Source of the DNA: an uncultured Rhodospirillaceae bacterium
Lineage (GTDB): Bacteria; Pseudomonadota; Alphaproteobacteria; MPNO01; UBA830
Assembly: GCA_964579285.1 (NCBI GenBank)
Contig: CAZOHS010000006.1
Location: 1 to 43,874, forward strand
DNA: 43,874 nt
Direction of reading: 5' to 3'
Within the stretch, counting starts at the first letter, position 1. The number at the start of each line of letters is the position of its first letter. This document shows, piece by piece, positions 21,514 to 38,795 of this stretch. The notes under the pieces were generated by a model. That model was not told the DNA's origin and searched no databases. It saw only the letters and a list, made by a program, of their open reading frames with translations. Both the position numbers and the translations under genes were made by a program.

Positions 21514-21555
21514 GTATCTTAAACGGGAAACCGTCCCTTTCTCGATAAATCCTAT

Positions 21556-23991: not shown

Positions 23992-24005
23992 TTGGAGAAC
24001 GGATC

Positions 24006-24533
24006 CTAGGACATAGGTGTCAAATTATTTTCGCGAATAAACCTCTCATAAACAGGAAGATCGATGATAGGCGGCACACTTCCCGCTTGTCCAAACATGT
24101 CGGCAATCCAACCACGATGATAGCTGCCATGGGTAACTAAGTGAAAGAAACAGTTTGCCCGTGACAAGGATCCCGTATTTCCGCCTATAAGTTCATAATT
24201 TACTATTTCTTCAAGTTCTTCGATCTCAAGAGATTCAAAATACTCCAACATTTCACTGTCCATCCTCTGGCGAGATTGCCACAAGTCCCCTAACTCAGTG
24301 TGAATTGTGCCGCGAAGTTCAGAAATTCCGTGACTGCGTTCCTGCATGTGCGCAAGCCAAATCATGTCGACTGAAAGGAGGTGATTAAGGCTTACAAAAA
24401 TCGATTTGAGTACGGTTTTGCGCTCCTTGGTGACCTCAACGGGCGGCAGCTCACTAACTTTGGCGTACAGTTGATCATTAGCCCATCCGTTATATTCGAG
24501 TAAATTACGTATATGACCGCGTCCATCCTTCAT
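24006..24533 (-). CDS. DinB/YfiT family protein
   Basis: YN.WAN, SI...LNHL..VD.IWL and HLVTHGSYHRG His triad. Confidence 0.85.
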   Translation of the reverse strand: MKDGRGHIRNLLEYNGWANDQLYAKVSELPPVEVTKERKTVLKSIFVSLNHLLSVDMIWLAHMQERSHGISELRGTIHTELGDLWQSRQRMDSEMLEYFESLEIEELEEIVNYELIGGNTGSLSRANCFFHLVTHGSYHRGWIADMFGQAGSVPPIIDLPVYERFIRENNLTPMS

Positions 24534-24676
24534 AATGTTTTCCTTGCTAGACCGTCAGGATAATACCGACTGTATCCCCGTTCATCCACGCCAAACCGGA
24601 TTAACCGCTCCTGCGCCTGAAGAGGCTGTATTAACGTATTTTATAGTTTTTTTTATTTGAGCTATGAAAGTTGGGT

Positions 24677-25372
24677 TCAACTCGGTTCTTTTCGGCGCGG
24701 TATTAATAACCACCCAAAAATAAGAGCCGCTAAAGCCGCGCCGGCAAATTCAGCAATGATAAAAGCTGGAACATCGACGGGACGAATTCCAGAAAATGTA
24801 TCCGTAAAGGCCCTGGCTATAGCGACTGCGGGATTTGCGAAAGACGTGGAGGACGTAAACCAGTACCCGGCAGAAATGAAAAGGCCCACTGCATACGGGA
24901 CAGTGTGGGGACAAAAACGTATGCAACCGAGGATCGTAGCCACAAGCCCAAACGCCGCAATAACTTCCGCTGCCCATTGGGAAATCCCGGTACGTACGTG
25001 GGTTGACCACGTAAACACGTCAAGTTCAAACATGAAGTGTGCAATTACCGTTCCGGAAATCCCACCAACTACCTGGACTACCAGATACAATGGCACCTCT
25101 CGCGCAGGAAACATACGTCTCATCCAAAATGCGACGGTTACCGCGGGATTAAAGTGGGCACCGGAAACAGGACCAAATATTGAGATTAATACAACGAGTA
25201 TCGCGCCGGTCGCGACGGTGTTGCCGAGCAAGGCGATTGCATCATTTCCATTGGCCAAGCGCTCGGCCATAATCCCCGACCCAACCACGGTTGCGACCAG
25301 GAAAGCCGTACCAATTGCTTCCGCAAGCAGGCGGCGCTTTAAATCAAATTGGTCCATTTTCTTGTCCGGCAT
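24677..25372 (-). CDS. MIP/aquaporin channel, AqpS-like
   Basis: AEAIGT, SGAHFNPAVT and YWFTSSTSFANPAV; two NPA boxes; VVGSGIMA and GNTVATGAIL are typical of the AqpS clade. Confidence 0.88.
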   Translation of the reverse strand: MPDKKMDQFDLKRRLLAEAIGTAFLVATVVGSGIMAERLANGNDAIALLGNTVATGAILVVLISIFGPVSGAHFNPAVTVAFWMRRMFPAREVPLYLVVQVVGGISGTVIAHFMFELDVFTWSTHVRTGISQWAAEVIAAFGLVATILGCIRFCPHTVPYAVGLFISAGYWFTSSTSFANPAVAIARAFTDTFSGIRPVDVPAFIIAEFAGAALAALIFGWLLIPRRKEPS

Positions 25373-25432
25373 ATCATGTTGGGCAAACTTTTATTATTGA
25401 GTCATTGGAAAGAACGCACGTTACACAAAACG

Positions 25433-26968
25433 TCAGTCACTATCCTTTTCGAAGTGCCTAACAACAGGTGGTTGGCCGGGAAGGCCAAGTCTTTCCCAAT
25501 CACCCGTTACTTTGTCGTAAACTTTTTTACTCAGCATTGTTCTCTTAGAAAAGTTCTTGATATTCTTGTGATCCTTGCAGGCATTTATTAAGGCCTTAGA
25601 TCCGTAGGGCCGATTTTCAGCCGGGTATTGGCTGGGATCAAGTTGAGTACTCCAAGTGTCGCGCAAAATATCAATATCATCGACGGGGTGACTGCGGCTA
25701 GCCATAGCCCACAATACCTGGTCCATATCACAGGGATCGATATCTTCATCGACAGCAATAACCCATTTAGTGTAGTAGGCTCCGCCTGGAACTTGAGCCG
25801 CAAGCGCCAACACTTGCGCGGCATGGCCCGCGTAACGCTGCTCTACACTGACCACCGTCATACCCCACCCACCAGCTGCAGCAGGGTGACAATAGACCCC
25901 TTGGATTCCGGGGATTCCCAGTTTATCAAAATCATTCCACACTCGGGCAGAACGAATAATTGCAAAAAAACCACTTTGTTCACACGATGGGTAATCAGCC
26001 ATTAAGGCATTGGTCATAATCGGTTGAGTGCGATGATGTAACGCCGTGATTTCTACGAGCGGCGCCTCTCCCTCGGGTCTCCCATAATACCCTGTGAATT
26101 CACCGAATGGCCCTTCGGACTTCATTGCCCCAGGTTTTAAGACACCCTCAATAACCAATTCAGCATTGGCTGGTATCAATAAATCGGTTGTCTTTCCTTT
26201 AACCACCGACACCGCTTGATCCCTGATACCGCCAATAAACTCATACTCAGAAATATTTTTGGGAAAACCCTGTGAGCCAACCAGCATAAAAATGGGATCC
26301 ACGCCCCAGGCGGCTGCTACCTCGATCGCCTCACCCCTTTCCCATGATCTTTCGATATGAAGACGAGCGTCTTTGCCTGGAGAGAGATAAAGCCCAGCGG
26401 CGCGTTTACCCTGTTGCATCATGCGATAGGTGCCGACGTTTAGATATCCGCTGTCAGGATCCCGAGTGATGACGCAATCTGCGGTTCCGGGGTACCGCCC
26501 ACCGTCAAGCGGCCAGTGGATTGGTATAGGCAGTTCATCAAGGTCAATATCGTCACCAAGCAAAGTATTTTCGAATACCGGCGCTTCCTCAGGTGCAACC
26601 TCACGCGGGGGAATACGTTGCATAAGCTTAGTTTTAACTTTCGTGATTAGTTCAAGTGTCGGTGTATCCACATCTTCGCCCAGCGTAAGTGCAATACGCT
26701 TGAGGCTTGGTCCCGCGAGGTTCCAAAGAAGTCGAGCATTTATACCCCCCGCCTCAAAGCCCTCAGTTTTCTCAAACATAACGGTAGGGGATGGGTTTTG
26801 TTTAGCCAAAAGATACCCTATCGCACTCATTTCCTGGTCGCGACTAACGGGTTCCGAAACCCGAACCAATTCACCTATGTTTTCAACCTCTTGCAGCCAT
26901 TGGCGAAGGTCTTGAATAGGTTCATTTTGCGTCCGTTGGCTAACCGCGTCGGTGGTTTCTTTATTCAT
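25433..26968 (-). CDS. UbiD family (prFMN-dependent) decarboxylase 1
   Basis: DLRQWL, DGGRYPGT, NVGTYRM, EGPFGEFTGYY, VDEDIDP and LDPS; catalytic R/E/E pattern present. Confidence 0.92.
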   Translation of the reverse strand: MNKETTDAVSQRTQNEPIQDLRQWLQEVENIGELVRVSEPVSRDQEMSAIGYLLAKQNPSPTVMFEKTEGFEAGGINARLLWNLAGPSLKRIALTLGEDVDTPTLELITKVKTKLMQRIPPREVAPEEAPVFENTLLGDDIDLDELPIPIHWPLDGGRYPGTADCVITRDPDSGYLNVGTYRMMQQGKRAAGLYLSPGKDARLHIERSWERGEAIEVAAAWGVDPIFMLVGSQGFPKNISEYEFIGGIRDQAVSVVKGKTTDLLIPANAELVIEGVLKPGAMKSEGPFGEFTGYYGRPEGEAPLVEITALHHRTQPIMTNALMADYPSCEQSGFFAIIRSARVWNDFDKLGIPGIQGVYCHPAAAGGWGMTVVSVEQRYAGHAAQVLALAAQVPGGAYYTKWVIAVDEDIDPCDMDQVLWAMASRSHPVDDIDILRDTWSTQLDPSQYPAENRPYGSKALINACKDHKNIKNFSKRTMLSKKVYDKVTGDWERLGLPGQPPVVRHFEKDSD

Positions 26969-27019: not shown

Positions 27020-28024
27020 CTAAACACCCACAGGACCGGTCTGCGTCAACACAAGTCGTCCCTGTATCAAACGTGACTCAACTTTTCGTAGACCATTCTT
27101 ACATTGGTCAAGGGGCATCACCTCTGTAGGCGAGGGTTTTATCTTGCCCGCCTCATATAACTCAAAAATATGATCAAAGCATTTCTTAGTAAGATCCGGA
27201 CGTCGGCGGCGGTAATCACTGATCTGCAACCCTCCCACGTCAATATTTTTAACGAGTAAATAATTTGTTTTCAAAGAGGGAATCTGCCCCGCTGCAAATC
27301 CAATCACCACGACGCGGCCACGCCACGCGACCGCCCGAAGCGCGGCTTCAAATACATCTCCACCAAGCGGATCAATTACGATATCAACACCACGGCCATT
27401 GGTAACCGCAAACACCTGTTCACGGAGTGAATCCCGGATATTATCTCTACTAAGATCCACCGAATAATCCGCCCCGGCGTCTTGAACGAGGCTAACTTTT
27501 TCCGGGCTTGAAATACCGGCGATCGCCGTCCCCCCAAGAGCTTTAATTAATTGGATACAGGCGAGACCAACGCCACCTGTTGCACCAAGCACAAGAACCG
27601 TATCTCCTTTTAGAAAGCGGGCGCGTTCAATTAGAGCAAACCAAGCGGTATCGAAGACGAGGGCCATCGACGCACCGTCAACAAAAGATAATGTATCAGG
27701 AAGGTGATAGCAGTTATCTCGATGGATAGGTGTTAATTCGGCAAAACCGCCTTGTTCTGCCATCGCAACCACCCGATCGCCAAGGTTGAAACCGCGTACC
27801 TTCTCCCCGATAGATTGGACGACGCCTGTTGGCCCTTTTCCAGGAACAAAAGGCAAATGAGGTCGAAATTGGTAGGTGCCGCTCACCATAACAAGATCGA
27901 CGTAATTTACGGCTGTAGCACGGACCCCTATAATAAGGTCCTCTGGACCAGCGACCGGATCGTCAAACTCGGTTAGCGAAAGATTATCGATAGAACCATA
28001 TTCTGATAGAACCGCAGCACGCAT
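27020..28024 (-). CDS. NADPH:quinone oxidoreductase (MDR, zeta-crystallin-like)
   Basis: VNYVD...G.YQ.RP.LPFVPG, LGATGGVG and IGFAAGQIP; no Zn ligands. Confidence 0.9.
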   Translation of the reverse strand: MRAAVLSEYGSIDNLSLTEFDDPVAGPEDLIIGVRATAVNYVDLVMVSGTYQFRPHLPFVPGKGPTGVVQSIGEKVRGFNLGDRVVAMAEQGGFAELTPIHRDNCYHLPDTLSFVDGASMALVFDTAWFALIERARFLKGDTVLVLGATGGVGLACIQLIKALGGTAIAGISSPEKVSLVQDAGADYSVDLSRDNIRDSLREQVFAVTNGRGVDIVIDPLGGDVFEAALRAVAWRGRVVVIGFAAGQIPSLKTNYLLVKNIDVGGLQISDYRRRRPDLTKKCFDHIFELYEAGKIKPSPTEVMPLDQCKNGLRKVESRLIQGRLVLTQTGPVGV

Positions 28025-28033: not shown

Positions 28034-29674
28034 TTAGTCGAGGAACTCGGGCACCAAATTGCCCTCCGTAAGCCTCTTTATGATTTCTTGTTTTTCCATC
28101 TTTCCATTAGGCATTAGCGGGATAGAAGTAAGGGACAACCAAAACTCCGGCATATCGTAGCGCGACAAACCTTCGGCGGCGAGATGGGATAACATTTCAT
28201 GTGGTTCGACCGTAGTTTCCTCTTCAAACATCACCGCAAGGCATACGCGTTCACCTAAACGATCGTCGGCGACTGGAACGGCGGCCGCTAAACGCACCGC
28301 TGCATGTCGAAGAGCAAGATCTTCTATGAAATTGGGGTTTATATTATGTCCACCTCGCACAATTAGCTCTTTTTTCCTTCCCGTGAGGCAAAGATAGCCT
28401 TTTGCGTCAATCATTCCGAGATCCCCCGTCAAAAACCAGCCGTCGCTATTTAGGGACGCCTCGCTCGCCGCTACATCATCAAAGTACCCGAGCATTAGTG
28501 ACGCACCTTTGCCGCCAACGACGCCCAATTCGCCGGGTTGCAACCTCTTATCGACGTTACCTTCATCGAAGACAGCCAAATTGTAACCGGGACAGCATAC
28601 ACCGCTGCTGCGCAATATCTGTTCTCTTTCGTCTCCAGGTAAACCATGCTGATGGCCATTTGTTTCGGTCATGCCATAACCTTTCTGAACTGGAATACCC
28701 TTGTCGAACAGCGCTGCAGCCACGTGTTCAGGACATGCTGCGGCGGAAACACGAAAGCATTTAAGACGCTCATATTTATTTATTCCGCGGGAAGACAGTT
28801 CACCAACAAGGTCCATCGCGTGAGTTGGAACGCCAACTAAGTAGTTTACCCGGGCGGCTTCTATACGCTCTAGGAGGCTCTGGCGACGGGGCCAGTCGTG
28901 TATCACAAATTCGCCGCCAGCCACGAACGACGTCCACAGCGTTCCGCACCCCAAGTTATGACTAAAGGGGCTCAAGGAACAGGTAATTGTATTTTTATCA
29001 AAAGCCCAGGCTTCTGCAATTCCCCGAGCCGCAACGAGTTGAGTGTTGTCACTATGCATGACGCCCTTCGGATCACCTGTAGACCCAGAGGTGAAGGCAA
29101 GATAGGTGACCGTGTCAGGATCTTCAATTGGAAGAGGTAATTCTCCTGCATCGCTCTCAATTAAACCCTCAAATGGCGCACCACTCTCACCCTTCTTTAA
29201 ACGATACACCACTCGAAGTTGCGGCAGATCGGAAATAATATCGAGTATTTCATCGCCCTGGGCATCCGCGCCGTGGCCGGGCTCATGGATGTAAGCCGCG
29301 CAGGCGCCCCGCACACAAAGCGCCGCAATTTCGCGGACCGTATGGTTACGATGGGGAGACGGACAACAGACTAGGCCACACCGTGACGCTGCGAGCAGTG
29401 CAACTACTGTTTCTATCCGATTTGGCGCGCCAACAAAAATCGTATCGCCTGGTAAAAGGCCATTACGCAATAGATCGGCGGAAAACAAATCTATTACGAC
29501 TATAAGTTCTTTCCAGGATAGAGCTCGCAAACTATCCCGTACAGCAACACTATTCGGTGTTTTCGCAGCGTGAGCGTGTGCGATAGAGTATAGAGTGTGT
29601 TTTTTCCAAAAACCTGCTGCGTAATATTCGTCCACCGTTGCACTTGTCGGTAGCAACGTGGGTTCAATGGTCAT
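28034..29674 (-). CDS. Acyl/aryl-CoA ligase (class I adenylate-forming; cyclohexanecarboxylate-CoA ligase-like)
   Basis: FTSGSTGDPKGVMHSDNT, YGMTE, TGDLG, GRKKELIVRGG and NGK. The subfamily assignment is tentative. Confidence 0.85.
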   Translation of the reverse strand: MTIEPTLLPTSATVDEYYAAGFWKKHTLYSIAHAHAAKTPNSVAVRDSLRALSWKELIVVIDLFSADLLRNGLLPGDTIFVGAPNRIETVVALLAASRCGLVCCPSPHRNHTVREIAALCVRGACAAYIHEPGHGADAQGDEILDIISDLPQLRVVYRLKKGESGAPFEGLIESDAGELPLPIEDPDTVTYLAFTSGSTGDPKGVMHSDNTQLVAARGIAEAWAFDKNTITCSLSPFSHNLGCGTLWTSFVAGGEFVIHDWPRRQSLLERIEAARVNYLVGVPTHAMDLVGELSSRGINKYERLKCFRVSAAACPEHVAAALFDKGIPVQKGYGMTETNGHQHGLPGDEREQILRSSGVCCPGYNLAVFDEGNVDKRLQPGELGVVGGKGASLMLGYFDDVAASEASLNSDGWFLTGDLGMIDAKGYLCLTGRKKELIVRGGHNINPNFIEDLALRHAAVRLAAAVPVADDRLGERVCLAVMFEEETTVEPHEMLSHLAAEGLSRYDMPEFWLSLTSIPLMPNGKMEKQEIIKRLTEGNLVPEFLD

Positions 29675-29680: not shown

Positions 29681-30628
29681 TTAAACGCCTTGTGACGCAG
29701 CAACCAAGGTGTCCATCTCCATGTCATCGTCTTTTACTGCGCCGATAAGTTGAGTGACTTTTTCAATGCCGCGCTCATCGCACCAAGCTTCTAAATCATC
29801 AATGATCGTTGTTAACGCGGTCGGGTTTCGAAAGCCGGCATAACCGATGCCAACGGCGTGCGCACCGGCAAGCATATATTCCACGACATCTTCCGCCTTC
29901 GTGACCCCACCCACACCAATTACAGGGATATTTACCTCTTTCGCCACCTGGTAGACCATGCGCAACACGATCGGCTTTAAAGCGGGCGACACCATTCCAC
30001 CAAACTTATTACCGAGCGCGGGCCTGAAATTATCTGTACGTATTTTGAGGGAAAGAAATGTATTCGCAATCACGAGTGCGTCGGCACCCGCCTCTTCCGC
30101 AGCGACTGCGATGGAAACAATATCACCGGCATTGGGCGATAGTTTTGCCCAAACCGGCTTATCAGTGGCTGCACGGATACCCTCCATCACCATCTTCGTG
30201 TGATCTTCCTGCAAAGCGAAATTGCCTCCCGTTGTGTTTCGCGTAGGACAGGATATGTTGCATTCAATAACGTCTACATCCGGCACACTAAGCTCGCGTG
30301 CGAGCTCCGCAAAATCTTCAGCTGATTCTGACGAAACGCTTACAACAAGTGGGGGTTTAAACTTCGCGTATTCTGGGACAATATTATCTAAAAAATAATT
30401 AATCCCCTTACCCGGTAAACCAATAGACTGAATAATGCCGGCTTCCGTTTCCGCCATTCGCGGTGTTGGATTACCTACACGGGGTTCCCGGCAAATTGTC
30501 TTAGCCACCAGAGCGCCCAATCTATTAAGATCTATGACCTCATTGTATTCCCAGGAAAAGGCCCCCGAAGCGGGCTGTATTGGGTTTTGAAACATGAGAT
30601 CGCCGATTTTTACAGAAAGGTCTACCAT
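29681..30628 (-). CDS. Dihydroorotate dehydrogenase family 1B catalytic-subunit-like protein (divergent)
   Basis: NPIQPASG, GNPTPRMAET, NISCP, KLSPN and IPVIGVGG; several substrate-binding positions are non-canonical (see findings). Confidence 0.85.
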   Translation of the reverse strand: MVDLSVKIGDLMFQNPIQPASGAFSWEYNEVIDLNRLGALVAKTICREPRVGNPTPRMAETEAGIIQSIGLPGKGINYFLDNIVPEYAKFKPPLVVSVSSESAEDFAELARELSVPDVDVIECNISCPTRNTTGGNFALQEDHTKMVMEGIRAATDKPVWAKLSPNAGDIVSIAVAAEEAGADALVIANTFLSLKIRTDNFRPALGNKFGGMVSPALKPIVLRMVYQVAKEVNIPVIGVGGVTKAEDVVEYMLAGAHAVGIGYAGFRNPTALTTIIDDLEAWCDERGIEKVTQLIGAVKDDDMEMDTLVAASQGV

Positions 30629-31494
30629 CCAACTGCCTCCTGTATCTTAAATACGGGCCCCTCTCGGCAAACACGCCGAAGCACACGTTCACCATCTACC
30701 TGGAACGTTCTCATGCACACGTAGCAAGCGCCAAAACCGCAAACCATAATCTGCTCCATTGCCACCTGTCCAGGTACATTGTGTTTTTTTCCTAGCGTTT
30801 GCATGAGGTTAAGCAAGCGGCTTGATCCACAGGTAAAAAAAGCATCTGCCTTGCCAGAGGAGATCAGTCGCTCGAGTATTTTTTCGACGTTGTCCACATC
30901 ACTACTGCCGTCTTCATCAACAACCGAAAACGTCTCGGCGCCCAACTCACGAAACAAGTCTTGGGACATCAATAGCTCCGACTTACGTGCGCTTAAAATA
31001 GCGGTGACACCCACACCTTTTTCCGCTGCAAGTTGAGACAATGGTGCGAGAGTTGCCAATCCCACTCCCCGACCGAGCACAACAATATTCTTCCACGCCG
31101 GATCCAGCGCAAATCCGATGCCCAAGGGCCCGGAGATATTGAACGTGTCTCCGGACTCCAACATACCCATTCCTCTCGTACCCCGGCCTTCACATTTATA
31201 GAGAAATTCAATTTGTCCGGCTGGACTATTTACGCGGTAGACGCTCATGGGACGGCGCATCCAAACCTCGGCGCCGTCGGGTGAAGGGCACAGAAGGTGA
31301 AAAAATTGTCCTGCGTAAGCGGACAACGCCTTCTCGGGAACGCTGAGACACAGCAGCTTATATTCGTCATTTACCCATTCATTGGACACAACATCCGTTA
31401 AGTATTCCCCGACCGGTTTTTCGGGATAGTGATCAAACTCCCCGGGCCGTATCGCTGAAGTTGTATAGTTTTCATTGGGACGGAGATCATTCAT
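30622..31494 (-). CDS. PyrK-like FAD/[2Fe-2S] electron transfer subunit
   Basis: AGQFF, RRPMSV, G.GT, GPLGIGF, GRGVGLA and EQIMVCGFGACYVC...CREGPVF. Start set to ATG 31494; overlaps the PyrD-like start by 7 nt. Confidence 0.88.
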   Translation of the reverse strand: MNDLRPNENYTTSAIRPGEFDHYPEKPVGEYLTDVVSNEWVNDEYKLLCLSVPEKALSAYAGQFFHLLCPSPDGAEVWMRRPMSVYRVNSPAGQIEFLYKCEGRGTRGMGMLESGDTFNISGPLGIGFALDPAWKNIVVLGRGVGLATLAPLSQLAAEKGVGVTAILSARKSELLMSQDLFRELGAETFSVVDEDGSSDVDNVEKILERLISSGKADAFFTCGSSRLLNLMQTLGKKHNVPGQVAMEQIMVCGFGACYVCMRTFQVDGERVLRRVCREGPVFKIQEAVGW

Positions 31495-31534: not shown

Positions 31535-31577
31535 ACAATATTGTAATAAATTAAAGATAAATTCCATTTTTATTACA
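31535..31577. promoter_or_regulatory. AT-rich palindromic sites upstream of the PyrK-like gene
   Basis: ACAATATTGT palindrome (31535-31544) and TGTAATAAA-N18-TTTATTACA inverted repeat (31542-31577). Confidence 0.35.
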
Positions 31578-32897
31578 CGTAGCACCCTCGCCAAACAACA
31601 TCGTAATGTTAATACGGTGATTTTGATATCCGGGGGCAAAATCAGGTTTATCCGTTTCGTGAAAGAGCCGAGAATCAAATAACACCGCCCGATTTGTCCG
31701 GTAGGGAACCGAAACCGCAGACGCACCATTAAGGCTTAAAAATTGGTTAATTTCAGATTGATTTTCCTCGTAACCGATAGGTTCCCAGTCCGGTGGTGGC
31801 AGTTCGCGATAGATCGTTAGCCCACCGTTAGGCGGGTTTTGATTTGCCTCATCAGGCGTGATCCAGAAGTTAAGGCTTACAGCTCCGTCGTCAGCGTGCA
31901 CCTTAATAGGTCGTGTACCCACTAAACTCTTAAATGCCCATGCTTGAGAAAGAGGATGGTCACTCAAAATCTCCGGTAAAGCCGTCCGGAATTCGTGCGC
32001 AATTTGAAGAATTAATGGGCAGGCCAAACCATCTTCAAGGTAGGAAGCCACAAAACCTGGTATGTGCTGAAAGTCGTGCCAAATTGTGCTTTGTTGTAAA
32101 AAACGCTGCAGCCTTTCTAATGCTTGAGGGCTGAGAAAATCGTCAAAATATGAAATGAGCGGCGTATGGGACCCGTACTCATCGCCAACGTTGTTATAGT
32201 TTAGATTCGCATTTACCGCCCCTCCGGATACTGCGGGTGCATCCACCGAGTGTATCGACCCATTATAATCCCAACCAAGACGGTCTAGCTGATCCGGTAA
32301 TAATACCGACACGCCGTCTGCTAGCTCCTGAGCAACCCCCTCATATAGCCGGGCAAGAATTTCAAATCTTTCCCCATCACGTGCACGACGTGGCAGGTTT
32401 CGAAACAGATCTGCATCGTGTTTCAACTTCATGGATGTTGCGGTTTTAAGAGATCTCGCCGCAATGCCCGTTCGGTCTTCACCTCTGCGCAACTCATAGG
32501 TGCGTGCAAAATGATCGAGCGACCGGCCAAGATTACCGAATTCCAGCCAAAAATATCCTAATGCGAGGTGTGCGTCGTAGTGTTCCGGTTCCAGGCTAAC
32601 CGTCGATTGAAATGCTTCGACCGCCTCTTTGCCGCGACCAAGCGCTTTCAACGCATTGCCCCGATTGAAGTGAGCAGAAAAATATTCCGGGTGCGAAAAA
32701 ATTAAACGGTCAAAAAGTTCTATCGCTTGTTCAAGTGCGCCCCGACGCGCTGATAAAACCGCCAGATTATGAAGGGCTCCGGAGTGACTTGGTTCTAGTT
32801 GAAGTGCTTCGCGGTAAGTGGCCTCAGCATCATGAAACTTTTTGGCGTCCTGATATGCGGCCGCCTTGGATAGCAGAGACTCCAGATCTGGAACCAT
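31551..32897 (-). CDS. TPR-repeat protein with a putative C-terminal Fe(II)/2-oxoglutarate oxygenase-like domain
   Basis: N-terminal TPRs (AEATYREALQLEP, ALHNLA, AHFNRGNALKALG); C-terminal VHAD...NRAVLFDSRLFHET...HRINITMLF fits HxD...H...R. Confidence 0.7.
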   Translation of the reverse strand: MVPDLESLLSKAAAYQDAKKFHDAEATYREALQLEPSHSGALHNLAVLSARRGALEQAIELFDRLIFSHPEYFSAHFNRGNALKALGRGKEAVEAFQSTVSLEPEHYDAHLALGYFWLEFGNLGRSLDHFARTYELRRGEDRTGIAARSLKTATSMKLKHDADLFRNLPRRARDGERFEILARLYEGVAQELADGVSVLLPDQLDRLGWDYNGSIHSVDAPAVSGGAVNANLNYNNVGDEYGSHTPLISYFDDFLSPQALERLQRFLQQSTIWHDFQHIPGFVASYLEDGLACPLILQIAHEFRTALPEILSDHPLSQAWAFKSLVGTRPIKVHADDGAVSLNFWITPDEANQNPPNGGLTIYRELPPPDWEPIGYEENQSEINQFLSLNGASAVSVPYRTNRAVLFDSRLFHETDKPDFAPGYQNHRINITMLFGEGATCNKNGIYL

Positions 32898-32898: not shown

Positions 32899-33783
32899 TT
32901 AGTTCGATAGTTTCTTCATAAGTTCGCGCATAAACTTCGCCGCATTCTTTCCTTTATGAGCCCTGCGCCACATGTTGTTGACAGTCTTTTCATGAAGCTC
33001 CACGGCTTCCGGCGCGGAGGTGATCATGGCGATACCCCCTTGGATATTTGGCTGTTCGCCAAGTCGAAATGGACTCAACGATAGAATTTTGCGATCCGCC
33101 TGTTTAAAGATCTGAAAACTATTGTGAGGTAATGAACCCGGGACTATTCCAATTTGGACACCAATCGGCTCCTCTTCCATCAATTGGATTAGATGTTCTG
33201 CCTCAAGTCGTGCCCGAGAACGCCGTTGGGCTTTAACGTTTTCAGGTAAATCGAGAGATCCAACCAATCCATTACGCAGAAACCGATCAATCTCCGCCCC
33301 TGAAATAAGATTCAGTATACCCGGTTTGCGCGATTTCCATGTTTCTTTTCGTCGACGCAGAATAGAAATTAGTTCTCCGACAATATCACGCTCAGCACTT
33401 TGTTCCGCCACACCCTCTGCAATACTCTCGGCGAGAACTTCTTCCAACATGTCACTGAAGGAGTCTGAAGAAAGCAAAAACGAAACCGGACCCGCAAGTA
33501 CGATAATATGTTCAGCACTTTCTTCGATTTGACGTAAACGCTCGAAAAACGTGACGGCTGATGAAATGTATTCTACGCCAACGCCTAGTAAAGTAGGAAC
33601 CGACACCTCTAACAAAACCGACAGCTTCTCAAGCGTTTCGATCTTGGCTACGTCCCCCTTTTCAAACCGATATAAGGCCGTCCGGGAAATACCAAGACGA
33701 CGTGCAATCTCATCAGCACTGAGACCGGTAGCCAAACGAAACGCTTTTAATCGATCCCCTATATCATCGAAGCGTATAGTCAT
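32899..33783 (-). CDS. XRE/Cro-C1 HTH transcriptional regulator with a large C-terminal domain
   Basis: IGDRLKAFR...GLS..EIARRLGISRTALYRFEKG HTH followed by about 225 aa that I cannot assign. Confidence 0.87.
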   Translation of the reverse strand: MTIRFDDIGDRLKAFRLATGLSADEIARRLGISRTALYRFEKGDVAKIETLEKLSVLLEVSVPTLLGVGVEYISSAVTFFERLRQIEESAEHIIVLAGPVSFLLSSDSFSDMLEEVLAESIAEGVAEQSAERDIVGELISILRRRKETWKSRKPGILNLISGAEIDRFLRNGLVGSLDLPENVKAQRRSRARLEAEHLIQLMEEEPIGVQIGIVPGSLPHNSFQIFKQADRKILSLSPFRLGEQPNIQGGIAMITSAPEAVELHEKTVNNMWRRAHKGKNAAKFMRELMKKLSN

Positions 33784-33836: not shown

Positions 33837-33873
33837 GAGGTACAAGGTTTATGTGTCGGGGGTCAACGGACAG

Positions 33874-34866
33874 ATGACAAATTGGCGTTATACAAAAGGC
33901 TTGCACGACCTTGGAAACGGAAGCTGGGCATGGCTGCTTCCGGACGGCGGTTGGGGTTGGAGTAATGCTGGATTGATTGTGGATGCCGACCAGTCTCTAT
34001 TGGTTGATACGCTTTTTGACCTTCCGTTAACGGCAGAAATGCTGGCAGCTATGCGCAACACTGCACCGGCCGCTCAGGAAATTAATACACTCATCAACAC
34101 CCACGCCAATGGGGATCATACGTTTGGTAACCAACTTGTTTCGGGTGCTAAAATAATTTCCTCTACTGCATGCAAACAAGAAATGGACGGACGACCACCC
34201 GAGGTATTTGTTGACCGAGTAAAGAATTGGGAAAGTCTGGGCGATGCGGGCGCTATTATCTGGGAACTCATGGGTCGTAAATTTAACTACGACGGCATAA
34301 TTTATACCCCACCAACACACACCTTTGAAAAATCTCTCTCGTTCACGGTAGGACAAAAACGAGTAGAGCTGACAAATGTAGGGCCGGCACACACTGGAGG
34401 AGATGTGCTAGTGTATGTACCGGAAGACAGGACCATTTTTACGGGCGATATCATTTTTGTCGGTGGTCATCCGGTGATGTGGGCGGGTCCAGTGGACAAT
34501 TGGATTAAGGCCTGTGACTACATTCTCGGTTTGGACGTTGAAACGGTTGTCCCGGGACACGGTCCAATCAGTGGCAAAGATGAAGTCCGTGCTTTGCGTA
34601 ATTATCTGTCGGAAATACGAGACGAAGCACGGAAAAGGTATGACGCGGGTTTGAATTGGGTGGAGGCATCAGAGGAAATCGTCACTGATTTTTATAATAA
34701 TTGGATAGACCGCGAAAGGGTTTTCATAAATGTTAACTCCCTCTACAGAGAATTTAACCATGATAGAAAACCGCCAGCCGCAATGAAGGTGTTTTCCGAG
34801 ATGGCGAAATGGTATTGGTCGGAATATCCTGACCGATATCCACATAGTAGTTGCAGAGGACACTGA
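33874..34866 (+). CDS. Metallo-beta-lactamase-fold hydrolase (cyclase-like)
   Basis: WGWSNAG, VDT, THANGDHTFGN, AHTGGD, FTGD and VPGHG. Start is 33874 (ATG) or 33853 (GTG). Confidence 0.87.
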   Translation: MTNWRYTKGLHDLGNGSWAWLLPDGGWGWSNAGLIVDADQSLLVDTLFDLPLTAEMLAAMRNTAPAAQEINTLINTHANGDHTFGNQLVSGAKIISSTACKQEMDGRPPEVFVDRVKNWESLGDAGAIIWELMGRKFNYDGIIYTPPTHTFEKSLSFTVGQKRVELTNVGPAHTGGDVLVYVPEDRTIFTGDIIFVGGHPVMWAGPVDNWIKACDYILGLDVETVVPGHGPISGKDEVRALRNYLSEIRDEARKRYDAGLNWVEASEEIVTDFYNNWIDRERVFINVNSLYREFNHDRKPPAAMKVFSEMAKWYWSEYPDRYPHSSCRGH

Positions 34867-34871
34867 CACAA

Positions 34872-35288
34872 ATGACACTGAACATTAAACACTCTGTAAA
34901 ACAAATGGTTGCCGATGCTAATAAGGAAGTTGAAGAAATCAGTATCACCGATGCACGACTACTTATCGGGCAAGAAAACGTGCTGTTCATCGATATCCGA
35001 GATATCCGAGAGGTGGCCAAAACTGGCCGTATTGTCGGCGCCCGGCATGTACCGAGAGGCATGCTAGAAATGTGGATTGACCCGGACACCCCTTACCACC
35101 GTTCATTTTTTGCTGATGAAAAGAAGTTTATTTTTTATTGCGCCGGCGCCTGGCGCTCTGCTCTTGCCGCAAAAACAGCGCAGGATATGGGTCTCACGCC
35201 AGTTGCCCACTTAGAGGGTGGAATGACGGCCTGGATCGAGGCCGGCGCACCGATTGAACCGCCCAAGGACCGAAAAATAAGAGACTAA
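34872..35288 (+). CDS. Single-domain rhodanese
   Basis: IDIRD.RE...G.I.GA.HVPRGMLE, YCAGAWRSA active-site loop and L.GG..AW. Confidence 0.9.
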   Translation: MTLNIKHSVKQMVADANKEVEEISITDARLLIGQENVLFIDIRDIREVAKTGRIVGARHVPRGMLEMWIDPDTPYHRSFFADEKKFIFYCAGAWRSALAAKTAQDMGLTPVAHLEGGMTAWIEAGAPIEPPKDRKIRD

Positions 35289-36703
35289 TGATAATGGATA
35301 ATCGCTCAAACCAGCCCTACACCCCGGACCTGCGGGGTTTCATCGAGTATCTAGACACAGTACATCCGGATCAAATCATCCGCATATCCAAGGAGGTTGA
35401 CCCAAAGTTCGGGGTAACCGGCATACTCGATCAGCTAGAAAAAGATGGTCATTTCGAAGCCGTAATCTTCGAAAACGTGAAGGGATCAAATATACCCCTA
35501 GTCGCGAACATGCATGGCCATTTTGCGCGCCTGCGGTACGCCATTGGGATGGAAGAAGGCGACGAGAAAGCCTTTCTAAAAGAATACGCTTCCTTGGAAG
35601 CCAATCCGATCGAACCGGTAATGGTGGAGGACGCGCCAGTACAGGAAATTGTGAAAACCGGAGACAAAATTAACGTGGATGAGCTGCCAATCTGCACGTA
35701 CCACGAACTCGACGCCGGCCGCTTTATCACCGCCGGATTAGGATTAATGCGGGATCCCGACACGGGTATCGATAATATTGGCATTTATCGCCATCAAGTA
35801 CATAGCCGCAATGAACTTGGTGTCCAGTTGTCGGAAACAGCGGACGGTAACGTAATTTGGAAGAAATATGAGGCCCGCGGAGAGGCATGCCCAATCGCAA
35901 TAGTCATTGGCCACCACCCCGCGTTTTTCTTAGGCTCGCTAAGTTACACGCCAATTGACTCCAACGAACTACACGTTGCCGGGGGAATTTTGCAACGCCC
36001 GGTGCCTCTGGTGCCGTGCAAGACTATCCCGCTTGCCGTCCCCGGCGATGCAGAAATAGTGATCGAATGCGTAATTCGTCCAAATGAACGCCGTGCGGAG
36101 GCCCCCTTTGGTGAATTTCCGGGAACGTACGGACCCGAACGAATGAACCCAGTGCTCGAGATCAAGGCCATTACGCACCGCAAAAATCCACTCTACCAAA
36201 ACGCCTTTGTGGGACACCCAGACAACCTATTGCTTTCAGGGGTAATTAGATCGACCGCGATAGAGGAAACAGTCAAGATGGCGTGTGGTACCGTCACCGG
36301 TGTCCACATGCCACGGTCCGGTCGTTTCCGCTTCAGCTGTTACATTGCCATTGACCGTAAAATCGAAGGGGAAGCAAAGGCCGCGGCAATGGCCGCATTC
36401 GTTACGGATCCTTTTCTCAAGTTCGCTATTGTTGTCGATCACGATGTCGACATAACAAGCGATACGGAAGTGATGCACGCGATCGCCACCCGTGTGAGGG
36501 CGGATCGAGATATTTTTATGGTCCCCTACGCGAAGGGCTCTCCACTTGACCCCGCGTCTTACGATCCAGCCGCGGGCTCACACTTAGTTACTAAGATGGG
36601 TATAGATGCAACCCGAAAGGATAATTACCCACAGGAAATCTCCATACCCGGGGTAGAAAACATAGACTTGTCAGACTTCATTGATGGTTATACCAAAAAA
36701 TAA
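35288..36703 (+). CDS. UbiD family (prFMN-dependent) decarboxylase 2
   Basis: DLRGFI, DAGRFITAG, NIGIYRHQ, EAPFGEFPGTY, VVDHDVD, LDPA and KMGIDAT; TAATG overlap with the rhodanese stop. Confidence 0.92.
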   Translation: MIMDNRSNQPYTPDLRGFIEYLDTVHPDQIIRISKEVDPKFGVTGILDQLEKDGHFEAVIFENVKGSNIPLVANMHGHFARLRYAIGMEEGDEKAFLKEYASLEANPIEPVMVEDAPVQEIVKTGDKINVDELPICTYHELDAGRFITAGLGLMRDPDTGIDNIGIYRHQVHSRNELGVQLSETADGNVIWKKYEARGEACPIAIVIGHHPAFFLGSLSYTPIDSNELHVAGGILQRPVPLVPCKTIPLAVPGDAEIVIECVIRPNERRAEAPFGEFPGTYGPERMNPVLEIKAITHRKNPLYQNAFVGHPDNLLLSGVIRSTAIEETVKMACGTVTGVHMPRSGRFRFSCYIAIDRKIEGEAKAAAMAAFVTDPFLKFAIVVDHDVDITSDTEVMHAIATRVRADRDIFMVPYAKGSPLDPASYDPAAGSHLVTKMGIDATRKDNYPQEISIPGVENIDLSDFIDGYTKK

Positions 36704-36716
36704 GGGGCCGTGACTT

Positions 36717-37667: not shown

Positions 37668-37759
37668 AGACGGGCCCTTGCCTGTTCAAAGAAAATTGTC
37701 GTGAGATGTATTGTCATAGAGGGTTCTCCAGACGAGAGGGACCAAGGTAACATAAAGAT

Positions 37760-38784: not shown

Positions 38785-38795
38785 GGTCAATGTTC

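What the first reader, a model, noticed from the sequence alone, without database searches (positions are those of the whole stretch)
29681..31494. PyrK-PyrD pair with altered orotate-binding motifs inside a catabolic gene run
Seen: canonical family-1B motifs N(A/S)IGLxNPG, NISCPN, GGLSG and GTA read QSIGLPGKG, NISCPT, GGMVS and GYA here. The catalytic Cys, FMN-contacting Lys (AKT, KLSPN) and NT are retained, and PyrK keeps four [2Fe-2S] Cys. No pyr biosynthetic genes are adjacent; the next genes are a CoA ligase, an MDR reductase and a UbiD. Established: these Asn residues hydrogen-bond the pyrimidine ring, and alphaproteobacteria normally use family-2 quinone-linked DHOD. Inference: a repurposed NAD(H)-linked flavo-iron-sulfur enzyme that reduces or oxidises a C=C bond in a different cyclic acid.
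Basis: partly seen in the sequence, partly recalled or inferred. Interest (0 to 1): 0.72.

Follow-up and report, generated by a model that had tools for sequence, protein, structure and literature searches.

The report
Repurposed dihydroorotate-dehydrogenase-like reductase operon
A two-subunit enzyme that databases call dihydroorotate dehydrogenase is more likely a very conserved offshoot that works on a look-alike ring acid in a breakdown pathway, always beside an unannotated oxygenase.

Summary
At 29681-31494 (minus strand) a PyrK-like and a PyrD-like gene overlap by 7 bases. Compared with a solved DHOD-B, PyrD has N->Q, NISCPN->NISCPT, GGLSG->GGMVS and GTA->GYA; the catalytic Cys, both Lys and the four PyrK Cys are kept.

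These changes define a clade. They occur in 121 of 121 members, whereas 107 of 112 nearest outside representatives keep both Asn. The clade is one tight cluster (82-96% identity), and the next full-length relative is at most 45% identical.

The genome has a separate family-2 pyrD. The conserved partners are not the CoA ligase, MDR or UbiD. They are PyrK (72 of 80 loci), a TPR protein whose C-terminal half models as a prolyl-hydroxylase-like 2OG oxygenase (66 of 80), and an HTH regulator (38 of 80).

Variable neighbours are Mo-hydroxylases (34), TcuA-like dehydrogenase (23), amidase (21) and dihydroorotase-type hydrolase (18). A sister clade keeps the canonical Asn and sits with dihydroorotase plus an M20 carbamoylase, which suggests orotate breakdown.

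Best reading: an NADH-linked reductase for an orotate analogue. The leading but unproven candidate is citrazinate (1-deaza-orotate), leading to tricarballylate. The oxygenase's role is unexplained. No biochemistry exists.

The parts
29681..30628 (-). PyrD-like FMN subunit (315 aa). Family-1B DHOD fold with catalytic Cys127 and Lys43/Lys162, but Q67, T129, V213-S214 and Y263 at positions that are N, N, S-G and T in DHODs.
30622..31494 (-). PyrK-like FAD/[2Fe-2S] electron-transfer subunit (290 aa from Met15 of the ORF). It has four invariant Cys and a conserved N-terminal extension of about 30 residues (Y10, D21, P24, E30). Its stop overlaps the PyrD start by 7 nt.
   Evidence: NCBIfam PyrK models are far below cut-off (126 against 314)
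31551..32897 (-). TPR protein (residues 1-140) with a C-terminal double-stranded beta-helix domain like prolyl hydroxylases. H334-x-D336...H413 and R428 are invariant. The C-terminal half matches no Pfam family.
32899..33783 (-). XRE-type HTH regulator with a C-terminal domain of about 200 aa. It is the first gene of the operon, 1 nt before the TPR gene. Homologues (47-65% identity) also head the sister-clade operons.
28034..29674 (-). Acyl/aryl-CoA ligase, 6 nt after PyrD. Lineage-specific: 16 of 80 related loci.
27020..28024 (-). MDR (quinone-oxidoreductase/enoyl-reductase-like) NAD(P)H reductase. Lineage-specific: 20 of 80 loci.
25433..26968 (-). UbiD-family (prenyl-FMN) decarboxylase. Lineage-specific: 27 of 80 loci at the chosen cover, and many of those matches are only 26-36% identical.
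22780..25372 (-). Tail of the same-strand gene run: MIP channel (24677-25372), DinB-family protein (24006-24533) and a class-A FAD monooxygenase like 3-hydroxybenzoate 6-hydroxylase (22780-23991).
   Evidence: each found in at most 4 of 80 related loci
33853..37667 (+). Divergent gene run: metallo-beta-lactamase-fold protein, a second UbiD decarboxylase (35288-36703) and an Amidohydro_2 protein (36717-37667). These recur beside the module in the marine relatives only.

Best explanation
The pair is not the cell's dihydroorotate dehydrogenase. It is a catabolic, NADH-linked flavin/iron-sulfur reductase descended from family-1B DHOD.

Proposed mechanism (inferred by homology, not shown). PyrK-like takes electrons from NADH through FAD and a [2Fe-2S] cluster. 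PyrD-like passes them through FMN, with Cys127 as the acid, to the C=C bond of a ring acid that resembles orotate but is not orotate. Two of the four Asn that hold the orotate nucleus are replaced.

Proposed pathway (inferred from gene neighbours in relatives). The substrate is an oxo-substituted N-heterocyclic carboxylate made by molybdenum hydroxylases. Reduction turns it into a cyclic imide. A dihydroorotase-type (or PuuE-type) hydrolase opens the ring, an amidase removes the nitrogen, and a TcuA-like flavoprotein oxidises the resulting tricarboxylate.

Leading candidate substrate. Citrazinate (2,6-dihydroxyisonicotinate, that is orotate with N1 replaced by CH) fits best. It would give 2,6-dioxopiperidine-4-carboxylate and then tricarballylate. 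I put about 0.3 on this substrate, against about 0.6 on the general claim.

Unexplained partner. The TPR/2OG-oxygenase encoded just upstream belongs to the module, but its step is unknown.

This window. In the marine lineage of the window the feeder and follow-up genes differ: a CoA ligase, an MDR reductase and UbiD decarboxylases.
For: 1. Active site. Residues equivalent to Asn67 and Asn132 are listed among those that hydrogen-bond orotate-type nuclei in a family-1A DHOD (PMC12060061, passages). Here they are Q67 and T129 in 121 of 121 clade members. They are N in 107 of 112 nearest outside representatives and in the solved DHOD-B chain. The mapping between the two numbering schemes is by shared motif, not by an alignment made here.

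2. Redundancy. The window's genome has a family-2 pyrD on another contig. In G001, G002, G003, G005 and G174 a second, stronger PF01180 hit lies well away from the PyrD-like gene; it was not typed as family-2. G004 showed none. G002 is flagged unpublished.

3. Isolation and constraint. The clade is one 50%-identity cluster, and the next full-length hit is at most 45% identical. Between the same genome pairs, PyrD-like is 82-88% identical and PyrK-like 69-76%. The second PF01180 gene (taken as housekeeping PyrD) is only 44-49% and the TPR-oxygenase 36-49%.

4. Module. In 80 related loci, PyrK-like is present in 72, the TPR-oxygenase in 66 and the HTH regulator in 38.

5. Neighbours, by tblastn over the 80 loci:
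- any Mo-hydroxylase subunit: 34
- TcuA-like: 23 (582 bits against the NF006130 cut-off of 369)
- amidase-signature amidase: 21
- pyrC_dimer-type hydrolase: 18
- M20 carbamoylase: 0
These occur in several different gene orders. One is the same-order genome G174, where two Mo large subunits precede HTH-TPR-PyrK-PyrD and a PuuE-like hydrolase, TcuA-like and an amidase follow.

6. Contrast. Three of the four homologues at 47-54% identity (sister clade; L089, L090, L091) keep N67, N129, GGLSG and GT. All 3 are followed by an M20 carbamoylase, once with pyrC_dimer and pyrE, which is the logic of reductive orotate breakdown. The fourth (L093) has M67 and other neighbours. Focal and sister rows group together in the tree (96*).

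7. Own genome. A TcuA-like gene (583 bits) lies beside a gene that looks PrpF-like to me (not scanned). An extra pyrC_dimer-type gene (430 bits; a pyrC_multi gene at 361 bits exists elsewhere) lies 1.6 kb from an amidase that is 43-47% identical to the module-linked amidases.

8. Chemistry. Isonicotinate breakdown through Mo-dependent 2,6-dihydroxylation is on record for Mycobacterium sp. INA1 (PMC4548258, passage and reference). The later steps (CoA ester, reduction, tricarballylate) are recalled, not seen in any call. Citrazinic acid is used as an inhibitor of 5-FU phosphorylation (PMC5472421, abstract start in a search listing). That its target is orotate phosphoribosyltransferase is recalled.
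Against: - Nothing has been assayed. The NADH donor, the direction of the reaction and the substrate are all inferred.
- The window itself has no Mo-hydroxylase, TcuA, amidase or dihydroorotase-type gene within 22 kb upstream or 12 kb downstream of the pair. The pathway is read from relatives and from other, short contigs of an 87%-complete MAG.
- In G001 and G003 the adjacent pyrC and pyrE are the only copies found in the genome. That adjacency may therefore reflect ordinary pyrimidine genes, or a link to pyrimidine metabolism.
- The citrazinate scheme needs no oxygenase, so it leaves the most constant partner unexplained.
- The TcuA-like protein misses the TIGR02485 cut-off (263 against 373).
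- The 80 loci are relatives of one another, many of them Xanthobacteraceae MAGs, so the counts are not independent.
- Isonicotinate and citrazinate are not known to me as abundant natural compounds, yet the module is common in seawater and soil.
- PyrD-like still passes NCBIfam's DHOD equivalog cut-off (323 against 269).
Confidence: 0.6

Rival explanations
1. It is a genuine DHOD-B. It would be either a second biosynthetic dihydroorotate dehydrogenase (for example for low-oxygen conditions) or a catabolic orotate reductase, and the altered residues would still accommodate orotate.
For: PyrD-like passes the NCBIfam DHOD cut-offs (PRK07259 323 against 269; TIGR01037 291 against 270). The catalytic Cys, both Lys, two of the four Asn and the carboxylate-binding I-G-L loop are kept. 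pyrC_dimer-type genes lie nearby in 18 of 80 loci and pyrE in 19, and in G001 and G003 these are the only copies found. An oxygen-using partner (the 2OG oxygenase) could fit oxygen-dependent control.
Against: Two orotate-contacting Asn are replaced in 121 of 121 members, against 107 of 112 conserved outside the clade. A second PF01180 gene away from the module co-occurs in 6 of the 7 carrier genomes examined, the window's own genome included (typed as family-2 in the own genome only). G174 carries a sister pair with canonical residues in addition to this one. M20 carbamoylase, the enzyme an orotate route needs, is found in 0 of 80 focal loci but in 3 of 3 sister loci that keep N67/N129. The PyrK-like subunit is far below every PyrK cut-off.
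Confidence: 0.12
2. The general reading is right, but the substrate is a different ring. Candidates are a maleimide- or glutarimide-type cyclic imide with an acid side chain (such as tetrapyrrole breakdown products), a 2-pyrone carboxylate from lignin-type aromatics, or a CoA thioester such as citrazyl-CoA.
For: The Asn-to-Gln lengthening and the Asn-to-Thr change would suit a smaller ring or one substituted differently (inference). A ring-opening hydrolase, an amidase and a TcuA-like dehydrogenase fit any imide that yields a tricarboxylate. The window is rich in Amidohydro_2 genes; that family includes aromatic-acid decarboxylases and pyrone hydrolases (recalled). A CoA ligase follows PyrD by 6 nt in the window and is present in 16 of 80 loci.
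Against: Mo-hydroxylases, the most frequent variable neighbour (34 of 80), act typically on N-heteroaromatic rings (recalled). No neighbour is specific for tetrapyrrole or lignin products. The CoA ligase is absent from most loci.
Confidence: 0.2
3. It is a dihydropyrimidine-dehydrogenase-like enzyme (the PreA/PreT role) that reduces uracil, thymine or a 5-substituted uracil.
For: The second Asn of the NxSCPN motif is also not conserved in dihydropyrimidine dehydrogenases, whose substrate lacks the 6-carboxylate (recalled). PreA is among the weaker NCBIfam hits.
Against: PreA scores 127 against a cut-off of 335, only model positions 1-328 of 422 are matched, and there is no C-terminal ferredoxin domain in a 315-aa protein. 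The partner is PyrK-like, not PreT-like. No M20 carbamoylase lies in any of the 80 loci. The carboxylate-binding loop and Lys43 are kept.
Confidence: 0.05
4. It is the 6-hydroxynicotinate reductase of the aerobic reductive nicotinate pathway known from Azorhizobium.
For: Many carriers are Xanthobacteraceae-type MAGs with Mo-hydroxylases and an amidohydrolase beside the module. The chemistry, reduction of a 2-pyridone carboxylate, is similar.
Against: In Bradyrhizobiaceae SG-6C and A. caulinodans that step is assigned to a homologue (42% identity) of the Eubacterium barkeri 6-hydroxynicotinate reductase, in its own conserved cluster (PMC3511419, passage). That this enzyme belongs to a family other than DHOD is recalled. 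A TcuA-like tricarboxylate dehydrogenase and a separate amidase are not part of that route (recalled).
Confidence: 0.03

Closest known systems
Family-1B dihydroorotate dehydrogenase (PyrD/PyrK heterotetramer; solved chains 1ep1_A and 5ue9_A)
   Same: Same two-gene architecture with overlapping genes. PF01180 TIM barrel aligned over residues 4-300 (E about 1e-64). Catalytic Cys, both FMN-contacting Lys, N124, N189-T190 and the I-G-L carboxylate loop are kept. The PyrK-type partner has an FAD domain and four Cys.
   Different: Two of the four orotate-binding Asn are replaced (Q67, T129). GGLSG reads GGMVS and GTA reads GYA. PyrK carries an N-terminal extension of about 30 residues and scores far below the PyrK cut-offs. 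The pair co-occurs with a family-2 pyrD, has no pyr context in the window, and is always beside a TPR/2OG-oxygenase gene.
Sister clade of alphaproteobacterial PyrK/PyrD-like pairs (L091, L089, L090)
   Same: 47-54% identical. Groups with the focal clade in the tree (96*). Shares the homologous HTH regulator and the P-x-K-G loop. It is also an extra copy, beside a second, stronger PF01180 hit elsewhere in the genome.
   Different: Keeps N67, N129, GGLSG and GT. Has no TPR-oxygenase. Is followed by an M20 carbamoylase (3 of 3), once with dihydroorotase and pyrE, which fits orotate itself as substrate. It is uncharacterised too.
Isonicotinate pathway of Mycobacterium sp. INA1 (Kretzer, Frunzke and Andreesen 1993)
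   Same: Mo-hydroxylases make a 2,6-dihydroxypyridine-4-carboxylate (PMC4548258 passage). The later steps, recalled only, are CoA activation, NADPH-dependent ring reduction to a dioxopiperidine, hydrolysis and tricarballylate. The enzyme types match the neighbours seen here.
   Different: As far as I recall, no genes are known for that pathway. My searches of the held library found no paper that describes such genes. The reductase there acts on the CoA ester and uses NADPH (recalled). The 1993 paper itself was not seen.
NAD-dependent dihydropyrimidine dehydrogenase PreA/PreT
   Same: An FMN TIM barrel of the same superfamily that reduces a pyrimidine C5=C6 bond, with an Fe-S/FAD partner.
   Different: The PreA model is not met (127 against 335). 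There is no ferredoxin domain, and the partner is of PyrK type.
TPR-bearing 2OG protein hydroxylases (AspH; prolyl 4-hydroxylases such as P. putida PPHD and PHD2), for the partner gene
   Same: N-terminal TPR plus a C-terminal double-stranded beta-helix. Foldseek's best whole-chain hits are AspH (E 3e-9). The domain-level matches are 4iw3_A (Z 16.8, rmsd 2.6, 174 aligned) and 2y33_A (Z 16.0). The H-x-D...H triad and an Arg are invariant.
   Different: 7-17% identity. No Pfam family matches the catalytic half. All 120 listed homologues are named only as TPR or hypothetical proteins. It lies in catabolic operons: here, and as a paralogue beside a Mo-hydroxylase and a CoA ligase. The substrate is unknown.

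Membership tests
Family-1B dihydroorotate dehydrogenase, catalytic subunit (PyrD) | PF01180 TIM-barrel fold and a family score above the curated cut-offs | tested here: met
   PF01180 at 206.7 bits (cut-off 27); NF005574 at 323.4 (269); TIGR01037 at 290.9 (270)
Family-1B dihydroorotate dehydrogenase, catalytic subunit (PyrD) | Catalytic Cys in N-x-S-C-P and the two FMN-contacting Lys | tested here: met
   C127, K43 and K162 are present and invariant in the clade
Family-1B dihydroorotate dehydrogenase, catalytic subunit (PyrD) | Four Asn that hydrogen-bond the orotate ring (equivalents of Asn67, 127, 132 and 193/194) | tested here: not met
   N124 and N189 are kept. Positions 67 and 129 are Q and T in 121 of 121 members, but N in 107 of 112 outside representatives. 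The residue list comes from PMC12060061 passages, and the mapping is by motif.
Family-1B dihydroorotate dehydrogenase, catalytic subunit (PyrD) | Serves pyrimidine synthesis: it is the genome's DHOD, in a pyr context | tested here: not met
   A separate family-2 pyrD lies on contig C37. No pyr gene lies in the window. The pyrC and pyrE neighbours seen in some relatives remain ambiguous.
Family-1B dihydroorotate dehydrogenase, catalytic subunit (PyrD) | Dihydroorotate:NAD+ activity | not testable with these tools
   This needs an enzyme assay.
DHOD-B electron-transfer subunit (PyrK) | FAD-binding domain plus a C-terminal [2Fe-2S] domain with four Cys | tested here: met
   PF10418 at 45.8 bits and PF00970. 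C252, C257, C260 and C276 are invariant in 24 sequences.
DHOD-B electron-transfer subunit (PyrK) | Score above a curated PyrK equivalog cut-off | tested here: not met
   The best hit is NF000799 at 126.3 against 314. All four PyrK models are below cut-off.
NAD-dependent dihydropyrimidine dehydrogenase PreA | PreA model score, and a C-terminal 2x[4Fe-4S] ferredoxin domain | tested here: not met
   NF006183 at 127.4 against 335. Model positions 1-328 of 422 are matched by a 315-aa protein.
Fe(II)/2-oxoglutarate oxygenase (partner gene 31551-32897) | Double-stranded beta-helix fold | tested here: met
   AF2 model with pLDDT 88.7. Residues 231-446 match 4iw3_A (Z 16.8, rmsd 2.6, 174 aligned), 2y33_A (Z 16.0) and 6f0w_A (Z 15.9).
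Fe(II)/2-oxoglutarate oxygenase (partner gene 31551-32897) | H-x-D/E...H iron triad and a basic residue for the 2OG C5 carboxylate | tested here: inconclusive
   H334, D336, H413 and R428 are invariant in 34 sequences. Their placement on the fold was not checked residue by residue, and no Pfam oxygenase family matches.
Tricarballylate dehydrogenase TcuA (neighbour in relatives and on own contig C66) | Score above the curated equivalog cut-off | tested here: inconclusive
   NF006130 at 582 (369) is met; TIGR02485 at 263.5 (372.55) is not met. The own-genome copy scores 583 bits.

The most novel reading that the evidence does not exclude
Alphaproteobacteria in seawater and soil run an undescribed 'pyrimidine synthesis in reverse' route for a deaza-orotate. 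Mo-hydroxylases make citrazinate. A neo-functionalised PyrK/PyrD pair de-aromatises it to a glutarimide carboxylate. A dihydroorotase-type hydrolase and an amidase open and deamidate the ring. The carbon enters the TCA cycle as tricarballylate or aconitate.

The always-present TPR/2OG oxygenase, a family with no database annotation, would be a new kind of partner for a DHOD-type enzyme. It would act in one of two ways. It could hydroxylate the reduced imide, so that ring opening yields isocitrate directly in the many loci that lack TcuA. Or it could hydroxylate the conserved Pro-rich N-terminal tail of PyrK as an oxygen-dependent switch.
Probability: 0.25. Interest if true: 0.8.

Novelty: new variant of a known kind. 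Interest (0 to 1): 0.68.

Why it matters
1. Annotation. Every source name seen for this clade is 'dihydroorotate dehydrogenase (NAD+) catalytic subunit', and it passes NCBI's equivalog cut-off. If the reading is right, more than 120 sequence clusters (the search lists no more) are misnamed, and metabolic models credit these bacteria with a second DHOD.

2. Enzyme evolution. A focal clade with Q/T and a sister clade with N/N, in one lineage and even in one genome (G174), form a natural experiment on how two residue changes retune a textbook active site. The focal PyrD is far more conserved (82-88%) than the second PF01180 gene, taken as housekeeping PyrD, in the same genome pairs (44-49%).

3. 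Pathway discovery. As far as I recall, no genes are known for isonicotinate or citrazinate breakdown. The module is common in marine plankton metagenomes (20 runs, 12 studies) and in soil MAGs, which implies a widespread natural substrate that has not been identified.

4. The partner. The oxygenase family has 1378 homologues, none with an annotated catalytic domain among the 120 listed. It is found in 22 of 301 sampled class genomes and is unstudied.

Tried and rejected
- Complex prediction of the TPR-oxygenase (A1) with PyrK-like (A2) returned 'no answer' (score 0.00, controls not run). This says nothing either way.
- The look-up of sequencing runs listed no RNA holder. This says nothing on expression.
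- Pfam on the C-terminal 300 residues of the TPR protein, at E up to 10, gave 0 families. The protein atlas gave only weak leads: OGFOD2-like and 2OG-FeII_Oxy_3 at 0.84.
- A profile search of the PDB with A1 returned only TPR matches among the 60 shown.
- Homarine catabolism was considered and rejected. The published hom operon uses a TgnAB-like flavin pair, a peptidase and an aldehyde dehydrogenase, with no DHOD-like enzyme (PMC13236597, abstract and section 6 read).
- 6-Hydroxynicotinate reductase was rejected; see the rivals.
- Literature. Searches for DHOD-like catabolic reductases, citrazinate or isonicotinate genes, orotate reductase, ureidosuccinase or half-amidase and orotate catabolism found no paper describing this clade or genes for citrazinate breakdown. 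Only titles and abstract starts were seen for most listed papers. The 1996 review I tried by a recalled PMC id is not held, and the 1993 Mycobacterium paper was not seen.
- My crude ORF clustering undercounted genes in GC-rich loci, where antisense ORFs displaced real ones. The counts were therefore redone by tblastn.
- The first tree run (124 rows) did not finish. The reported tree uses 73 rows: all 13 focal and sister rows and the first 60 of 111 outside representatives. It was built with FastTree and carries SH-like support only.


Full report
WHAT IS THERE

The finding lies inside a tightly packed minus-strand gene run. In order, the genes are:
- an XRE-type HTH regulator (32899-33783);
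- a TPR protein (31551-32897), 1 nt after the regulator;
- a PyrK-like gene (30622-31494, counted from Met15 of the ORF, the start that relatives use);
- a PyrD-like gene (29681-30628), whose start overlaps the PyrK stop by 7 nt;
- a CoA ligase (28034-29674), 6 nt later;
- an MDR reductase (27020-28024);
- a UbiD decarboxylase (25433-26968);
- then a MIP channel, a DinB-family protein and a class-A FAD monooxygenase.

Pfam and NCBIfam confirm these families. The rest of the window is a catabolic island. It holds a second UbiD, five Amidohydro_2 genes, two more CoA ligases, SDRs, a TauD-type oxygenase and six EamA transporters, and no pyrimidine gene.

PyrD-like aligns over residues 4-300 with solved DHOD chains: 5ue9_A at E 3e-65, and 1ep1_A, named 'DHOD B (PyrD subunit)', at 7e-64.

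I placed the residues on the query numbering: K43, Q67, P72-G73-K74, N124, C127, T129, K162, N189-T190, G210-G211-M212-V213-S214 and G262-Y263-A264. In 121 of 121 sequences of the clade, Q67, PGK, T129, S214 and Y263 are invariant.

I took the 150 best representatives of 50%-identity clusters from a library of 1.84 billion proteins and kept the 112 that are 280-345 aa long. Among those 112, 107 have N at 67 and 107 have N at 129. S213 occurs in 104, G214 in 110 and T263 in 90.

The residues that hydrogen-bond orotate-type nuclei in a family-1A DHOD are Lys43, Asn67, Met69-Gly70-Leu71, Asn127, Asn132 and Asn194 (PMC12060061, passages). By motif, the two replaced here are the equivalents of Asn67 and Asn132. 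I did not make an explicit alignment for this mapping.

The P-x-K-G loop is not specific to the clade, because the sister clade has it too. PyrK-like keeps the four Cys, but it scores 126 against the 314 needed for the best PyrK model.

IT IS AN EXTRA, ISOLATED AND UNUSUALLY CONSTRAINED COPY

The window's genome is a MAG of 3.05 Mb in 328 contigs, 87% complete. It has a family-2 DHOD on contig C37, with NISSPNTPGLR and GGLSG.

Six other genomes carry the clade. Five of them (G001, G002, G003, G005, G174) show a second, stronger PF01180 hit well away from the PyrD-like gene (247-267 bits; 250). I did not type those hits as family-2. G004, a fragmented MAG, showed none. G002 is flagged unpublished; without it the count is 4 of 5.

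The clade collapses into one 50%-identity cluster (representative 85% identical). Every other full-length hit is at most 45% identical.

In a FastTree of 73 rows, the 9 focal rows form one group (97*). Their stem is long (0.24 plus 0.30) and their internal branches short. With four sister rows and one fragment they form a group at 96*. Support is SH-like only, and the root is at the midpoint.

Between the window's genome and four carrier genomes, PyrD-like is 82-88% identical, PyrK-like 69-76% and the TPR protein 36-49%. The second PF01180 gene, taken as the housekeeping PyrD, was compared with those four genomes and G103 and is 44-49% identical. Because the TPR gene has diverged as much as the housekeeping gene, a recent transfer of the whole operon is unlikely. 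The catalytic subunit is therefore under exceptional constraint.

Near-identical DNA occurs in 20 marine metagenome runs from 12 studies. The 80 related loci come from marine and soil alphaproteobacterial MAGs. In an even sample of 301 genomes of the class, only 2 have a copy at 82% identity or more.

WHAT TRAVELS WITH IT

I searched the 80 best related loci (±8 kb where the contig allowed) by tblastn at 60% query cover or more. The counts were:
- PyrK-like: 72
- TPR protein: 66
- HTH regulator: 38
- UbiD: 27 (many of these only 26-36% identical)
- MDR reductase: 20
- CoA ligase: 16

The constant partner is the TPR protein.

Its AF2 model is confident (pLDDT 88.7, pTM 0.87). Foldseek's best whole-chain hits are AspH, a TPR plus 2OG-oxygenase protein (E 3e-9). 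VIA-align matches residues 231-446 to prolyl hydroxylases: 4iw3_A at Z 16.8, rmsd 2.6 and 174 aligned; PHD2 2y33_A at Z 16.0; 6f0w_A at Z 15.9. Other 2OG oxygenases also match.

H334-x-D336, H413 and R428 are invariant in 34 sequences. No Pfam family covers this half. The 120 listed of 1378 homologues are named only 'TPR repeat protein' or hypothetical.

The domain occurs in 22 of 301 sampled genomes, so it is a wider family than the PyrKD module. A 48%-identical paralogue in the same genome sits after a three-subunit Mo-hydroxylase, a CoA ligase and an enoyl-CoA hydratase (these roles are read by eye from sizes and first residues, with no family scan).

VARIABLE NEIGHBOURS POINT TO RING OPENING AND A TRICARBOXYLATE

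By tblastn over the 80 loci, at 50% cover and 30% identity or more, the counts were:
- any Mo-hydroxylase subunit: 34
- TcuA-like flavoprotein: 23
- amidase-signature amidase: 21
- pyrE: 19
- pyrC_dimer-type hydrolase: 18
- CoxG: 15
- M20 carbamoylase: 0

The TcuA-like protein passes NF006130 (582 against 369) but not TIGR02485 (263 against 373). The hydrolase passes TIGR00856 (405 against 293).

The gene orders differ between lineages. Examples are:
- CoxG< amidase< TcuA< pyrE< pyrC< | TPR> PyrK> PyrD>
- PyrD> pyrC> TcuA> ... amidase> (L055)
- PyrD> amidase< pyrC< MoL< UbiD< (L024)

In G174, a 99%-complete genome of the window's own order, two Mo large subunits come first. HTH, TPR, PyrK and PyrD follow, and then a PuuE-like hydrolase, a TcuA-like gene and an amidase.

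In the window's own genome these genes exist, but on other short contigs. A TcuA-like gene (583 bits) lies beside an ORF that looks PrpF-like to me (not scanned). An extra pyrC_dimer-type gene (430 bits) lies 1.6 kb from an amidase that is 43-47% identical to the module-linked ones. A pyrC_multi gene (361 bits) is present elsewhere.

A TELLING CONTRAST

The class sample also turned up homologues at 47-54% identity. These are G174 (a second pair), G103, G276 and G055.

Three of them keep N67, N129, GGLSG and GT. All 3 are followed directly by an M20 hydantoinase/carbamoylase-family hydrolase. In G174 the order is HTH, PyrK, PyrD, carbamoylase, pyrC_dimer and pyrE. This is the logic of reductive orotate breakdown: orotate to dihydroorotate, to carbamoyl-aspartate, to aspartate. 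That route is known from Clostridium oroticum (recalled).

All four genomes also have a stronger PF01180 hit elsewhere, which I take as the housekeeping DHOD although it was not typed. One genome, G174, thus holds a housekeeping DHOD, a canonical-pocket pair with a ureido-cleaving enzyme, and the altered-pocket pair with an amide-cleaving enzyme and a tricarboxylate dehydrogenase.

MECHANISM PROPOSED

Shown:
- fold, cofactor-binding motifs and catalytic Cys;
- the altered pocket;
- redundancy with pyrD;
- the conserved module and the neighbour statistics.

Inferred:
- electrons flow from NADH through FAD and [2Fe-2S] to FMN, as in DHOD-B;
- the enzyme reduces the C=C bond next to a ring carbonyl in an orotate analogue.

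The analogue that fits best is citrazinate, which is orotate with N1 replaced by CH. One two-electron reduction gives 2,6-dioxopiperidine-4-carboxylate. A dihydroorotase-type hydrolase would open it to an amide rather than a ureide, so an amidase rather than a carbamoylase is needed. The product is tricarballylate, the TcuA substrate.

Mo-dependent 2,6-dihydroxylation of isonicotinate is documented for Mycobacterium sp. INA1 (PMC4548258, passage citing Kretzer et al. 1993). The rest of that pathway is recalled. Loss of the Asn at 129 would fit loss of the N1-H partner, but which atom that Asn contacts is also recalled, not tested.

WHAT DOES NOT FIT

- The scheme gives the oxygenase nothing to do.
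- The window has none of the ring-opening genes nearby.
- In G001 and G003 the adjacent pyrC and pyrE are the only copies found. Part of that adjacency may therefore be ordinary pyrimidine synteny, or a real link to pyrimidine metabolism.
- The loci are kin, so the counts overstate independence.
- No natural source of citrazinate is known to me.

For these reasons I hold the general claim at about 0.6 and the citrazinate assignment at about 0.3.

COMPARISON WITH WHAT IS KNOWN, AND NOVELTY

The pair works like a DHOD-B, but it fails two defining tests of membership: the orotate-binding Asn set, and being the cell's DHOD. It is not a PreA.

The nicotinate-pathway reductase of Bradyrhizobiaceae and Azorhizobium is assigned to a homologue of the Eubacterium barkeri enzyme (PMC3511419, passage). 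That this is a different protein family is recalled. The homarine operon is unrelated (PMC13236597).

Searches of the held library found no description of this clade, of its oxygenase partner, or of genes for citrazinate breakdown. Subscription journals are largely outside that library.

I rate it a new variant of a known kind. It is a neo-functionalised DHOD-B with a new obligatory partner, probably marking an undescribed catabolic route.

VERDICT

Interest is 0.68.

Noticed in passing
L091:7899-13763 (G174), L089:9234-11461 (G103), L090:7815-11625 (G276): Sister operons with the order HTH, PyrK-like, PyrD-like (canonical N67/N129), M20 carbamoylase, and in G174 also pyrC_dimer and pyrE. The genomes also have a stronger PF01180 hit elsewhere. 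This looks like an aerobic alphaproteobacterial route for reductive orotate breakdown, for which my searches found no description.
   Followed up: partly
L093:615-6289 (G055): A third variant of the PyrK/PyrD-like pair (47% identical; M at 67, N at 129, N-G instead of N-T). It lies next to caprolactamase/hydantoinase-like alpha and beta subunits, which suggests yet another ring substrate.
   Followed up: no
own genome G000 contig C4:38785-47175: A 48%-identical paralogue of the oxygenase domain, in a 555-aa TPR protein. It follows ORFs that look like a three-subunit Mo-hydroxylase (960, 292 and 162 aa), a CoA ligase and an enoyl-CoA hydratase (read by eye, no family scan). These oxygenases seem to be regular members of heterocycle or aromatic catabolic clusters.
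   Followed up: partly
window 29681-30628 compared with L024, L065, L075, L092: PyrD-like is 82-88% identical between genomes whose second PF01180 gene (taken as housekeeping PyrD; compared with these genomes and G103) is only 44-49% identical, and whose TPR partner is 36-49% identical. This degree of constraint is unexplained.
   Followed up: partly
window 1485-7290: Six consecutive EamA-family (DMT) transporter genes, four on the plus strand and two on the minus strand. This is an unusual tandem expansion.
   Followed up: no
window 16311-22644 and 36717-39824: Five Amidohydro_2 genes (16311-17279, 17332-18330, 21802-22644, 36717-37667, 38796-39824) lie with three CoA ligases, two UbiD genes and a TauD-type oxygenase. 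The window is a dense island of paralogous aromatic or heterocyclic acid catabolism genes.
   Followed up: no
window 24657-25400 (+): A 247-aa ORF lies antisense to the MIP channel gene (24677-25372, -). Only the minus-strand frame was scanned, and it matches the MIP family, so the plus-strand ORF is most likely spurious.
   Followed up: partly
G001:C2:556247-561574 and G003:C3:30730-35899: In these soil MAGs the only pyrC (dimer type) and pyrE found in the genome lie directly beside the TPR-PyrK-PyrD module, on the same strand as TcuA-like and amidase genes. It is unclear whether housekeeping pyrimidine genes are shared with the catabolic route.
   Followed up: partly
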